Shown here one piece after another: positions 53,010 to 54,450 of a stretch of DNA of 63,535 nucleotides (the stretch's first letter is position 1; each line of letters begins with the position of its first letter). A program made the position numbers and the translations under genes. The stretch lies in the IMG/VR virus record IMGVR_UViG_3300021446_000257, positions 1-63,535 of that record; one strand, given 5' to 3'. The notes below the pieces were generated by a model that saw only the letters and a list, made by a program, of their open reading frames with translations, was not told where the DNA came from and did not search any database. This DNA comes from a virus. Taxonomy: Duplodnaviria; Caudoviricetes.

Positions 53010-53695
53010 GCCGGCTCAACCTCCGCGCCCGGCGGGGCGCACTCGGTGGCCCATCTTTGATAATGATAAGGACACTTCCAGGTCAGTGTCGACGATTCCG
53101 AGTACCCGTCGAGTCGGTCGGTCGGGATCGGCCGCATCGCCAGCCCGTCGGGGTGGACGAGCGACGTGTCCGCCTCCAGCTCGGTCAGCGCCCAGTCCTC
53201 AACCTTGCCGAACCCGCGCGCCGTGTGCTTGCCGAGGTCGGTCAGATGGTCGGCCAACAGCGCCTCGATCCGGTCGCGGTCGCCACGGACGTAAAACCAG
53301 CAGTATCGGGCCGCCCTGTATTTCACGTCGATCATTTGGGATTTGAACGCGCCGCCGCCGATCGGGATCTTGCTGCGCGGGCGCGGGCCACCGACCGAGT
53401 GCGCGCGCACTTCGTCGTAGCTTGAATACAGCGTCGTCGTCGCGTTTCGGTCGGTCGAGAACTGCGATGCCGAGGCGTGGGCGATGTCGTCGGTGTACGC
53501 GAGGCCGGTGTCGACGATCCCCTCCGCTCGGAGGTCGCGCGGGCCGGACTCGTCGAGCTCGGCGACGAACCGGTCGTACTCCTTCCCCTTCGCGTCGATA
53601 AGCGCCAGTCGCTCGATGAGGCTCTCGCCGTTGATCCACGGATGGCCGAGCGCGACGCCGGAGCCGAGCGTGAGCGTGAGCTGGAGGTTTTGCAT
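53003..53695 (-). CDS. csf3: Csf3 (Cas5-group RAMP)
   Basis: N-terminal beta strand, FYVRGD...I..LL, G-loop LGKHTARGFGKV..W, MRPIP, PY.W C-terminus. Confidence 0.82.
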   Translation of the reverse strand: MQNLQLTLTLGSGVALGHPWINGESLIERLALIDAKGKEYDRFVAELDESGPRDLRAEGIVDTGLAYTDDIAHASASQFSTDRNATTTLYSSYDEVRAHSVGGPRPRSKIPIGGGAFKSQMIDVKYRAARYCWFYVRGDRDRIEALLADHLTDLGKHTARGFGKVEDWALTELEADTSLVHPDGLAMRPIPTDRLDGYSESSTLTWKCPYHYQRWATECAPPGAEVEPAW

Positions 53696-54450
53696 TAGGC
53701 CACCGCCTCCTGCTCGCGGCCGTCCATCCGGTAACCCGCCTCGCGCGTCTGGAGACAGCCGAACCCGTACGAGCGCTTCGCGCCGATGCCCGTCCCGAGG
53801 AGTGCGTTCAGCACGCGGCGGTGGTGCTCGTCGCGCACCTCGTAGCCGAAATCGAACTTGCTCACGACGAGTGTGAGGTCGTTCGCCGGCGTGATCTCGA
53901 CATCCAGCGCGTAGGTCTTTTGGTGATGGTACTCCTCGAACGGGTCGGTTTCGGGTGGCTCCACGTCCGTCTCGTTGTCGACGATGCCGCGGACGGTGGC
54001 GTGGAGTGCATCGCGGAACTCGGCCATTGTGTTGTCGCGGTCCGACCAGTACGTCTGGCGGTCATCGATCGAGATGCACGCTCCCGACGCGGTAGTGATC
54101 GTGCCCGACGACCCCGGCGGTCCGACGTCGGTCTCGATAGGAGTGGCGGCGCGGGCCTCCATCACCATCGAGCCGGCGGTGATCTCGGGGGCGTCATGGA
54201 GGTCCTGCGCGATGGTTTTGAGCGTGCCGGCCGACGACGCGGCGACGAGCAACCGGATTTCGTCGCCCGCCTCGTGCTCGGGGCGATACGGCATCGGGTC
54301 GGAGAACGCGAACGGTGCGGCCCGCGTGTCGCGATTGTCGTACGGCGTCCCGTCGATGGCCTGGGCGAGCCGGCCACGGATCTTGCGGTGGTAGCGCCGC
54401 TCGTGGGCGCAGTCGCGCTCGATCCGCAGTCGGAGTAGGAGTTGGTGCAT
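53695..54450 (-). CDS. cas6: Cas6 endoribonuclease resembling haloarchaeal type I-B Cas6
   Basis: YH.KIRGR, FAFS.P.P, DVG.PG..GTI.T, SKF.FGYEVRD.HHRR.LN, G-loop GIGAKRSYGFG; start MHQLL. Confidence 0.88.
   Translation of the reverse strand: MHQLLLRLRIERDCAHERRYHRKIRGRLAQAIDGTPYDNRDTRAAPFAFSDPMPYRPEHEAGDEIRLLVAASSAGTLKTIAQDLHDAPEITAGSMVMEARAATPIETDVGPPGSSGTITTASGACISIDDRQTYWSDRDNTMAEFRDALHATVRGIVDNETDVEPPETDPFEEYHHQKTYALDVEITPANDLTLVVSKFDFGYEVRDEHHRRVLNALLGTGIGAKRSYGFGCLQTREAGYRMDGREQEAVA

What the first reader, a model, noticed from the sequence alone, without database searches (positions are those of the whole stretch)
53695..54450. The Cas6 looks captured from the host type I-B system and may lack the catalytic His
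Seen: motifs YH.KIRGR, FAFS.P.P, DVG.PG..GTI.T, SKF.FGY.VRD.HHRR.LN and the G-loop. These match my recollection of haloarchaeal I-B Cas6 rather than the type IV Csf5/Cas6e-f types. It sits between csf2 and csf3. Where I-B Cas6 typically has YD..HD, this protein reads PYDNRD. Inference: it recognises host I-B repeats, possibly as a binding-only adaptor that steals pre-crRNA or crRNA.
Basis: partly seen in the sequence, partly recalled or inferred. Interest (0 to 1): 0.8.

Follow-up and report, generated by a model that had tools for sequence, protein, structure and literature searches.

The report
Virus type IV-B module with Cas6b
A tailed virus of salt-loving archaea carries an array-less type IV-B CRISPR-Cas gene set with a built-in, old offshoot of the host-type Cas6b RNA-processing enzyme whose usual catalytic histidine is an arginine, which makes the idea that such systems borrow or soak up host guide RNAs testable.

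Summary
Window 54450-53695 (minus strand) encodes a 251-aa Cas6 between csf2 and csf3, inside a six-gene set csf1-cas11-csf2-cas6-csf3-cysH-like. The record is a complete 63.5-kb tailed haloarchaeal virus with no CRISPR array.

The protein belongs to the haloarchaeal I-B Cas6b lineage, not to type IV Cas6/Csf5. Its best PADLOC model is Cas6b (182 bits). Its family profile hits 30 of 30 canonical haloarchaeal Cas6 at 126-213 bits. A careful tree nests it inside acidic (haloarchaeal) Cas6 (AU p 0.00017 against exclusion).

It is not a recent capture. It is only 29-39% identical to canonical Cas6b and belongs to a monophyletic family that sits in the same module in 9 of 9 related loci.

Arg40 aligns with Haloferax Cas6b His-41. 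Across 39 family members this column reads H17, R16 and 6 others, against His in 72 of 79 other Cas6 rows.

New points:
- cas6 alleles (His-type and Arg-type) are swapped between otherwise about 90%-identical modules.
- A cellular sibling module carries a cas6 deletion scar.

"Binding-only" and "binds host repeats" remain untested inferences.

The parts
55813..56517 (-). csf1 (type IV large subunit, Cys-rich zinc-finger-like motifs); the ORF is also open from GTG 56577
   Evidence: TIGR03114 31.9 bits, E 1e-7; PADLOC Csf1_0_IV 85.5 bits; 59-63% identical homologues at the same position in L003-L008
55353..55820 (-). cas11-like small subunit
   Evidence: PADLOC Cas11_0_IV 89.5 bits, E 4e-26; no NCBIfam hit; conserved in L003-L008
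54461..55378 (-). csf2 (type IV Cas7)
   Evidence: PADLOC Csf2_0_IV 236.5 bits; TIGR03115 41.4 bits, below its cut-off of 130; 69-78% identical in L002-L008
53695..54450 (-). cas6, Cas6b-derived, 251 aa: the finding
54331..54333 (-). codon of Arg40, the column of Haloferax Cas6b His-41
   Evidence: PYDNRDTR = 54322-54345; alignments
53758..53790 (-). glycine-rich loop GIGAKRSYGFG; G229 and G231 correspond to the essential Haloferax G256 and G258; R226 is specific to the family
   Evidence: column counts; Brendel 2014 passages
53003..53695 (-). csf3 (type IV Cas5); its ATG overlaps the cas6 stop codon by one base
   Evidence: PADLOC Csf3_0_IV 146.3 bits; TIGR03116 38.1 bits, below its cut-off; junction sequence
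52113..53009 (-). cysH-like PAPS-reductase-fold gene (SGGKDS PP-loop), the type IV-B marker
   Evidence: PF01507 36.5 bits; weak DndC hits; 44-49% identical homologues directly after csf3 in all loci that reach that far

Best explanation
The gene encodes the RNA-recognition subunit of a virus-borne, array-less type IV-B variant (csf1-cas11-csf2-cas6-csf3-cysH-like).

Shown:
- It descends from the haloarchaeal type I-B Cas6b lineage.
- It was taken into a haloarchaeal IV-B module once, long before this virus existed.
- It is kept under purifying selection, yet it is the fastest-evolving gene of the module and is exchanged as an allele between modules.
- The histidine that nearly all other Cas6 of this superfamily keep (Haloferax His-41) has been replaced repeatedly, mostly by Arg. 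The G-loop and a set of invariant arginines (R22, R25, R27, R226) are kept.

Inferred:
- Neither this virus nor its relative G402 has any array or repeat-like unit, and Cas6 lineages on both sides of this family in the tree sit beside the same 30-nt GTTTCAGAC...TTGAAGC repeat family. The RNA it recognises in an infected cell is therefore most likely the host's I-B pre-crRNA or crRNA repeat.
- Cas6 binds that repeat and seeds assembly of the viral Csf complex on host-derived guides. Whether it cleaves the repeat by arginine-based chemistry or not at all is about even odds.
- The outcome would be either withdrawal of crRNAs from host Cascade (anti-defence) or re-use of the host's spacer memory against competing elements. 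The CysH-like protein would be the still unknown effector.
For: Lineage:
- PADLOC Cas6b PDLC01785 scores 182 bits for the window and 459 bits for a canonical I-B Cas6. No type IV Cas6/Csf5 model reaches E 1e-3 for the window.
- The family HMM hits 30 of 30 canonical haloarchaeal Cas6 at 126-213 bits.
- One of these loci was checked and is cas6-cas8b-cas7-cas5b-cas3-cas4-cas1b plus an array.
- In the careful ML tree of 68 rows the family is monophyletic (100/97). It lies inside a 99/96 clade with canonical I-B Cas6, and the array-adjacent L023 Cas6 lies outside that clade.
- The AU test rejects keeping all other acidic Cas6 together (p 0.00017).

Integral part of the module:
- The same gene order is seen in 9 of 9 related loci, as far as each contig reaches.
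- dN/dS is 0.31 (28 pairs; 0.06 for the closest pair), against 0.16-0.17 for csf2 and csf3.

His column:
- Family: H17, R16, Q3, D1, Y1, C1 of 39. Seventeen of the 22 non-His members have no His within 3 residues.
- Other Cas6: His in 72 of 79 rows. At least 5 changes are needed within the family.

No own substrate found:
- No array or two-copy mini-array in the window or in G402.
- No Rfam CRISPR-DR family.
- No match within 10 mismatches to 6 haloarchaeal repeats, except one 10-mismatch hit in L004.

Repeat bracketing: L023, L040, L041 and the canonical loci all flank GTTTCAGAC...TTGAAGC-type repeats.

Allele swap: L002 (His-type) versus L007 (Arg-type) are 79-98% identical in nucleotides across csf2, csf3 and cysH, but 54-70% across cas6, and the identity breaks at the gene borders.

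Loss where a host Cas6b is present: genome G223 has the module with a 26-codon remnant MHCLLRLR... in place of cas6, and a canonical Cas6 on another contig.

Complex prediction (Csf2 + Csf3 + Cas6 as partner): weak support only. Score 0.39, best of 3 controls 0.00. That mark was reached by 58 of 80 solved complexes and 2 of 110 mismatched pairs, but scores at or under 0.60 came from only 7 of those 80 solved complexes and from both mismatches that passed. The runs share at least 29% of contacts and the partner pLDDT is at least 79.
Against: - No binding or cleavage was tested.
- At 29-39% identity to canonical Cas6b, the RNA specificity may have drifted away from I-B repeats.
- The host of this virus is unknown. 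None of 627 spacers from the fetched haloarchaeal arrays matches the window.
- The only cellular genome with a related provirus (portal 80% identical, G054) showed no Cas6 or Csf2 hit. I-B hosts are therefore not shown for this virus group.
- Canonical Cas6b was found in only 124 of 401 Halobacteria genomes searched.
- The Mycobacterium IV-B complex did not enrich co-expressed I-E crRNAs (Zhou 2021, PMC7937560, passages read).
- The genomic contexts of the nearest non-IV-B relatives (P0047, P0048, P0051, P0053, P0065, P0063, P0067) are unknown, so the donor system is inferred only from the wider tree.
- The AU group was named after the tree had been seen.
- dS is near saturation for most pairs.
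Confidence: 0.5

Rival explanations
1. The Cas6 has drifted to a non-CRISPR substrate. It recognises a hairpin or motif in a viral or host transcript and nucleates the Csf filament there, giving gene regulation or some other function. Host crRNAs play no role.
For: The Mycobacterium IV-B complex assembled on heterogeneous non-CRISPR RNA (PMC7937560). The window Cas6 is only 29-39% identical to canonical Cas6b and carries family-specific invariant arginines R22 and R226 in place of His and Asn. cas6 alleles differ strongly between otherwise near-identical modules, which could reflect changing targets.
Against: No conserved non-coding element was found. Apart from the module, window and G402 share only two short coding stretches, and the flanking genes are not conserved. 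The genes inside the module abut or overlap, leaving no room for an RNA gene. The G-loop and most basic residues shared with Cas6b are kept.
Confidence: 0.2
2. One reading: this virus recently took cas6 from its current host's I-B locus, and the protein is a catalytically dead, binding-only adaptor.
For: It is Cas6b-type. Arg sits at the His-41 column, with no His within 3 residues in the window.
Against: It is 29-39% identical to canonical Cas6b. It lies in an old monophyletic family fixed in the module in 9 of 9 loci. Of 401 Halobacteria genomes, only one MAG contig holds a family member, and that contig itself carries the module. His-type and Arg-type alleles coexist. His-free Cas6 and Csf5 enzymes are reported to cleave (passages read).
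Confidence: 0.05
3. The gene is a decaying passenger with no role in the module.
For: It is the least conserved of the six proteins (46-58% identity against 68-78% for Csf2 and Csf3). The catalytic His column is unconstrained. The gene has been deleted in G223.
Against: The frame is intact in all 8 loci that hold it whole or nearly whole. dN/dS is 0.31 overall and 0.06 for the closest pair. There are 27 invariant columns across 39 sequences, including the G-loop. The AF2 model is confident.
Confidence: 0.05

Closest known systems
Haloferax volcanii Cas6b (type I-B; Brendel et al. 2014, PMC3945376, passages read)
   Same: Same sequence family (PADLOC Cas6b model) and same fold class. N-terminal Y-H-x-K-x-R-G-R motif, the H210-R211 pair and the G-loop glycines equivalent to the essential G256 and G258 are all present.
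   Different: Only 29-39% identical to canonical haloarchaeal Cas6b (the Haloferax sequence itself was not in my set). His-41 column is Arg. No cas8b/cas7/cas5/cas3 and no array nearby. It sits inside a type IV module of a virus. R22 and R226 replace His and Asn.
Type IV-B CRISPR-Cas (e.g. Mycobacterium sp. JS623 Csf complex; Zhou 2021, PMC7937560; Taylor 2021 review, PMC8175902; passages read)
   Same: csf1, cas11, csf2, csf3 plus an adjacent cysH-like gene. No array, no adaptation genes, and no helicase or nuclease in the module.
   Different: It carries a Cas6 between csf2 and csf3, which IV-B is defined as lacking. Pinilla-Redondo 2020 mentions 'rare exceptions: only 12 instances' listed in a supplement I could not open. 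It is borne by tailed archaeal viruses.
Type IV-A Cas6/Csf5 and IV-A3 Cas6e-like enzymes
   Same: A Cas6-fold protein built into a type IV effector module. Csf5 is reported to use arginines instead of His (PMC8175902).
   Different: No sequence relation was detected. No typeIV_Cas6 model matched at E 1e-3. No type IV Cas6 or Csf5 chain appeared in the PDB profile search at E 10. The Mahella type IV Cas6 (6njy) ranks only 31st by fold. IV-A systems have arrays and DinG.
Type IV-C loci with Cas6b (Pinilla-Redondo 2020, PMC7038947, passage read)
   Same: A type IV module that adopted a Cas6b-type enzyme.
   Different: IV-C has a Cas10-like HD large subunit instead of Csf1 and no cysH. Here Csf1 and cysH are present.
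Fuxivirus type IV-B of Bathyarchaeia viruses (PMC10848311, passages read)
   Same: An archaeal virus carrying csf1-cas11-csf2-csf3-cysH.
   Different: That system has a mini-array, and Cas6 is not mentioned (0 occurrences of the word). This one has Cas6 and no array.

Membership tests
Cas6 superfamily / Cas6b | Sequence match to curated family models | tested here: met
   PF01881 26.5 bits, over its cut-off of 23. PADLOC Cas6b PDLC01785 182 bits. However, TIGR01877 scores 45.7 bits, below its 58.65 cut-off.
Cas6 superfamily / Cas6b | Double ferredoxin-like (RRM) fold with a C-terminal glycine-rich loop | tested here: met
   AF2 pLDDT 92.6. Foldseek hits to 3qjj, 5yi6 and 3pkm at E 1e-13 to 1e-11, TM 0.65-0.75. 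G229 and G231 are invariant.
Cas6 superfamily / Cas6b | Catalytic histidine at the Haloferax His-41 / Pyrococcus His-46 position | tested here: not met
   Arg40 in the window. The family column reads H17, R16 and 6 others of 39.
Cas6 superfamily / Cas6b | Lies in a type I-B operon next to a CRISPR array | tested here: not met
   It lies between csf2 and csf3, and the 63.5-kb record has no array.
Cas6 superfamily / Cas6b | Binds and cleaves the CRISPR repeat 8 nt upstream of the spacer | not testable with these tools
   Needs an RNA binding and cleavage assay.
Type IV-B CRISPR-Cas | csf1, cas11, csf2 and csf3 present | tested here: met
   PADLOC Csf1_0_IV 85.5, Cas11_0_IV 89.5, Csf2_0_IV 236.5 and Csf3_0_IV 146.3 bits. 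The NCBIfam equivalog scores are all below their cut-offs.
Type IV-B CRISPR-Cas | Adjacent cysH-like gene | tested here: met
   PF01507 36.5 bits, with an SGGKDS PP-loop. It lies directly after csf3 in every locus that reaches that far.
Type IV-B CRISPR-Cas | No CRISPR array and no adaptation genes | tested here: met
   Searches found no array. cas1 and cas2 were not specifically searched for in the whole window.
Type IV-B CRISPR-Cas | No Cas6/Csf5 processing enzyme | tested here: not met
   cas6 is present here and in 9 of 9 related loci. It is absent, with a deletion scar, in G223, and absent in the distant G274 module.
Type IV Cas6 / Csf5 (IV-A) | Sequence similarity to Csf5 or type IV Cas6 models or structures | tested here: not met
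   No typeIV_Cas6 hit at E 1e-3 for the window. None among the 12 PDB profile hits at E 10.

The most novel reading that the evidence does not exclude
Haloarchaeal tailed viruses carry a guide-piracy device. A Cas6b offshoot, freed from the need to cleave by histidine chemistry, captures the host's I-B repeat RNA and loads host crRNAs into a viral Csf-CysH complex. This disarms host Cascade and may also turn the host's spacer memory against rival viruses and plasmids. Swapping of cas6 alleles between modules would then be an arms race over repeat recognition, and cellular copies can drop cas6 where a host Cas6b is on hand.
Probability: 0.3. Interest if true: 0.85.

Novelty: new variant of a known kind. 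Interest (0 to 1): 0.7.

Why it matters
Type IV-B is the least understood CRISPR-Cas subtype. It has no array, no nuclease and no processing enzyme. The two standing hypotheses are that it scavenges crRNAs or that it sponges them, and neither has had a handle for testing.

This lineage supplies such a handle. It has a built-in Cas6 of known ancestry (Cas6b), so its likely RNA partner can be named, namely the 30-nt haloarchaeal I-B repeat. It occurs in viruses of a group with good genetics (Haloferax).

Three features suggest that RNA recognition, not cleavage, is what selection acts on:
- recurrent loss of the catalytic His;
- exchange of cas6 alleles between near-identical modules;
- a deletion scar in a cellular copy whose genome has its own Cas6b.

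My literature searches found no description of a type IV-B module with Cas6 in haloarchaeal viruses. The Bathyarchaeia virus paper states that type IV systems had not been seen before in archaeal viruses. The 12 Cas6-bearing IV-B loci of Pinilla-Redondo 2020 are listed only in a supplement that I could not read, and they may include relatives.

Tried and rejected
- Own CRISPR array or solitary repeat: none found by TRF, the repeat finder, k-mer scans of the window and of the whole G402 record, Rfam at gathering threshold on the window and 6 loci (only tRNA hits), or an ungapped search with 6 haloarchaeal repeats at up to 10 mismatches (one 10-mismatch hit in L004, taken as chance). A 3-mismatch pattern search of G402 gave 0 hits.
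- Spacer-based host link: 627 unique spacers from the fetched arrays gave no hit to the window. The best hit overall was 35 of 35 nt with 4 mismatches, from a 37-nt-repeat array (L059) to L007. One search printed far too much output; one search is the filtered version.
- Weaker TIGR01877 hits in Halobacteria (L052-L059) as possible sister groups: no BLASTP hit to the family set at 1e-5. They lie beside 36-37-nt repeats and were dropped from the trees.
- Sister clades of the family (P0047 and others): not found in 401 Halobacteria genomes or in IMG/VR by pattern.
- Related provirus in G054 (portal 80% identical): the contig ends just past the portal gene, so the insertion site could not be compared.
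- Polarity of Cas6 presence from the Csf2+Csf3 tree: unresolved. L097 is nested at 80/94, and AU p is 0.34 for monophyly of the Cas6-bearing modules. The deletion scar decided it instead.
- Columns co-varying with the His or non-His state: they only mark clades and were not used.
- phmmer of the single protein against PDB gave no Cas6 hit. The profile search did.
- In the trees, rows shorter than 225 aa or longer than 320 aa were left out. The 112-row tree used every second canonical I-B row and 14 basic-pI rows. The 68-row tree was a hand-picked subset.
- 'Acidic = haloarchaeal' and 'basic = outgroup' rest on pI, not on names.
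Full report
What is there. The window is a whole IMG/VR virus record of 63,535 bp, rated 100% complete by CheckV, with about 64% G+C. It encodes a large terminase, portal, head protease, major capsid protein, tail sheath, tape measure and baseplate wedge (PHROGs; 7 of the 10 large ORFs scanned matched, 3 did not). It is therefore a contractile-tailed archaeal virus.

On the minus strand, six abutting or overlapping genes run from 56517 to 52113: csf1, a cas11-like gene, csf2, cas6, csf3 and a cysH-like PAPS-reductase-fold gene. The PADLOC models name them Csf1_0_IV (85.5 bits), Cas11_0_IV (89.5), Csf2_0_IV (236.5), Cas6b (182.1) and Csf3_0_IV (146.3). 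The NCBIfam equivalogs for Csf1, Csf2 and Csf3 match only below their cut-offs, so the module is a divergent member of type IV.

Csf1, Cas11, the cysH-like gene, the lack of a helicase and the lack of an array are the marks of subtype IV-B as described in the passages I read. No array, mini-array or Rfam CRISPR repeat family was found.

The observation. It is a Cas6 by Pfam (26.5 bits against a cut-off of 23) and by fold (AF2 pLDDT 92.6). The best Foldseek matches are Pyrococcus and Methanocaldococcus Cas6 at E 1e-13 to 1e-11.

Which Cas6. A profile of 37 close relatives hits all 30 canonical Cas6 proteins that I took from Halobacteria genomes, at 126-213 bits. One of those loci, checked in full, is cas6-cas8b/Csh1-cas7/Csh2-cas5b-cas3-cas4-cas1b followed by a 30-nt-repeat array, which is a textbook I-B locus. 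All 10 of the 20-kb loci fetched around canonical cas6 genes hold arrays of the same repeat family.

The window protein is 29-39% identical to these proteins. No type IV Cas6 or Csf5 model matched it at E 1e-3. No type IV Cas6 or Csf5 chain was among the 12 PDB sequences reached by the profile at E 10. The solved type IV Cas6 (6njy) ranks 31st by fold.

A scan of 1.84 billion cluster representatives found only 198 relatives at E 1e-3. These split by isoelectric point into acidic proteins (taken as haloarchaeal) and basic proteins.

In a quick 112-row tree and a careful 68-row tree, rooted on the basic rows:
- the module-borne family is one clade (100/97);
- the acidic proteins are separated from the basic ones (100/98);
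- the family lies inside a 99/96 clade together with the canonical I-B Cas6;
- the array-adjacent L023 Cas6 branches outside that clade.

An AU test rejects the alternative that all other acidic Cas6 form a group excluding the family (lnL difference 84, p 0.00017; the group was chosen after seeing the tree). The would-be refutation 'it clusters with type IV Cas6/Csf5' is therefore not met, and the Cas6b ancestry stands.

Not a recent capture. Nine related loci were found: one MAG contig, one other IMG/VR virus and seven metagenome contigs. All show cas6 in the same slot as far as the contig reaches, and six hold all six genes.

Cas6 is the least conserved of the six proteins (46-58% identity to the window, against 68-78% for Csf2 and Csf3). 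It is nonetheless under purifying selection. NG86 dN/dS has a median of 0.31 over 28 pairs and is 0.06 for the closest pair, against 0.16 and 0.17 for csf2 and csf3. dS is near saturation, so these are rough values.

The viral backbones are far less alike than the module:
- Window and G402 align at the DNA level only across 53003-56394 (67%) and two short stretches.
- Only 3 of 20 flanking or virion proteins find G402 at all, at 31-36% identity, and none finds the other loci.

The module thus behaves as a cassette shared among divergent viruses. Among 401 Halobacteria species genomes, a family-type Cas6 was found only on the MAG contig that itself carries the module. Canonical Cas6b was found in 124 others.

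The histidine. Brendel et al. 2014 (PMC3945376; abstract and passages read) showed for Haloferax Cas6b the following:
- H41A lowers crRNA to 37% and weakens interference.
- G256A and G258A abolish both.
- H21A and H45A do little.

In my alignments the residues Y15, Y19, H21, K22, R26 and W28 of the canonical proteins fall where that paper numbers them. The 'HD' histidine is the His-41 column.

The window has Arg40 there, after a one-residue deletion, anchored by the following Asp-Thr and the PFxFS strand. There is no His within three residues.

Across 39 family members the column reads H17, R16, Q3, D1, Y1, C1. Seventeen of the 22 non-His members have no His within three residues. Outside the family, His is present in 72 of 79 rows: 14 of 15 I-B, 44 of 50 other acidic and 14 of 14 basic. 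At least five His/non-His changes are needed inside the family. Of the eight modules with DNA in hand, two are His-type (L002, L004) and six are Arg-type.

By contrast, several residues are invariant in the family: Y20, H21, R25, R27, K178, S197, H210, G229, G231 and the two family-specific arginines R22 and R226. R22 is His and R226 is Asn in I-B Cas6.

The reading 'lacks the catalytic His' is therefore right for this protein. 'Catalytically dead' does not follow. Arg is the preferred replacement. Csf5 is described as cleaving with arginines (review PMC8175902, passage read). One Sulfolobus Cas6 works without His (as cited in PMC3945376).

Two further findings. First, L002 and L007 are 79-98% identical in nucleotides through csf2, csf3 and cysH, but only 54-70% identical through cas6. 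The drop and the recovery fall at the gene borders. L002 has a His-type allele and L007 an Arg-type allele. cas6 has therefore been exchanged as a unit between otherwise near-identical modules.

Second, a Csf2 profile found the module in two more of 401 genomes. G223 contig 4 has csf1-cas11-csf2-csf3-cysH at 44-66% identity to the window's proteins, but no cas6. The 94 nt between its csf2 and csf3 hold a 26-codon ORF beginning MHCLLRLR, the N-terminus of the family (representative P0045 begins with the same eight residues). Its 3' end resembles the window's cas6-csf3 junction. This is a deletion scar, so cas6 was lost there. That genome has a canonical Cas6 on another contig.

G274 has a distant module (Csf2 31% identical) with csf2 and csf3 26 nt apart and no cas6. 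The Csf2+Csf3 tree places the G223 module among the Cas6-bearing ones (80/94) but cannot exclude the alternative (AU p 0.34).

How it most likely works. The following is shown: Cas6b ancestry, fixed membership of a IV-B module, selection for an intact RNA-binding scaffold, release of the His column, and allele exchange.

The rest is inferred. Cas6 lineages on both sides of the family in the tree flank GTTTCAGAC...TTGAAGC repeats, and the viruses carry no repeat of their own. The most economical partner is therefore the host's I-B repeat RNA. Cas6 would bind it, with or without cutting, and seed the Csf1-Cas11-Csf2-Csf3 filament on host-derived guides. This matches the long-discussed scavenging or sponging roles for IV-B. 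The CysH-like protein remains an unknown effector.

A complex prediction of Cas6 against Csf2 plus Csf3 gave weak support only: score 0.39, best control 0.00. That mark was reached by 58 of 80 solved complexes and 2 of 110 mismatched pairs, but scores at or under 0.60 came from only 7 of the 80 solved complexes and from both mismatches that passed. The runs agree in at least 29% of contacts and the partner pLDDT is at least 79. I give this little weight.

Against the model:
- The host is unknown.
- No spacer link was found.
- The one related provirus lies in a genome without detectable Cas6b.
- The Mycobacterium IV-B complex ignored co-expressed crRNAs.
- Specificity may have drifted at this level of divergence.

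Comparison and novelty. The thing works like a Cas6-capped class 1 effector and is built from IV-B parts plus a Cas6b. It fails one defining feature of IV-B (no Cas6) and one of Cas6b (the catalytic His and the I-B context). I therefore file it as a new variant of a known kind.

Pinilla-Redondo et al. [quoted passage not shown] They also note that IV-C carries a Cas6b. The Bathyarchaeia virus paper reports a IV-B module with a mini-array, no Cas6, in archaeal viruses. A 2025 paper on haloarchaeal proviral CRISPR-Cas deals with I-B, not type IV. Four full-text searches found no description of this haloviral IV-B plus Cas6b module, of the His-to-Arg pattern or of the allele swap.

Noticed in passing
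window 49721-49795 (-) and window 1-53 (+): There is a tRNA-Gln(TTG) gene inside the virus. The 3' part of a tRNA, cut at its 5' end, sits at the very start of the record (Rfam 39 bits). The latter suggests a provirus boundary or att site at a tRNA gene.
   Followed up: partly
window 56501-57118 (-): A GNAT acetyltransferase (PF00583, 33.5 bits) ends 17 nt inside the csf1 reading frame, directly upstream of the module. It has no counterpart next to the module in the related loci.
   Followed up: partly
window 59786-62482 (-): An 898-aa protein with winged-helix (MarR/GntR-like) matches near residues 220-273 and 725-772. A homologue 31% identical over its full length is present in the other virus, G402.
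   Followed up: no
L005 3060-3826: In this metagenome locus two extra ORFs are inserted between cas6 and csf3: an acidic 171-aa protein and an 84-aa protein with CxxC...CxxC.
   Followed up: no
L007 14785-14819: A spacer from a 37-nt-repeat array of a Halobacteria genome (L059, G173) matches this module-bearing contig over 35 of 35 nt with 4 mismatches (E 1e-5 among 627 spacers). This hints that such elements are targeted by a non-I-B haloarchaeal system.
   Followed up: no
L052-L059 (Halobacteria genomes): A second group of TIGR01877-positive ORFs of about 292-361 aa, scoring below the cut-off, lies beside 36-37-nt repeat arrays. They show no BLASTP similarity to the Cas6b-type set at 1e-5. 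They are probably the Cas6 of another CRISPR type.
   Followed up: partly
G054 contig 2, 146688-153198 (L100-L102): A provirus-like stretch with a portal 80% identical to the window's lies at a contig end. This genome gave no Csf2 or Cas6 hit, so a related virus appears to lack the module.
   Followed up: partly
window 55844-55906: An imperfect 27-nt tandem repeat (2.3 copies, 75% matches, TRF score 77) lies inside the 3' end of csf1.
   Followed up: no
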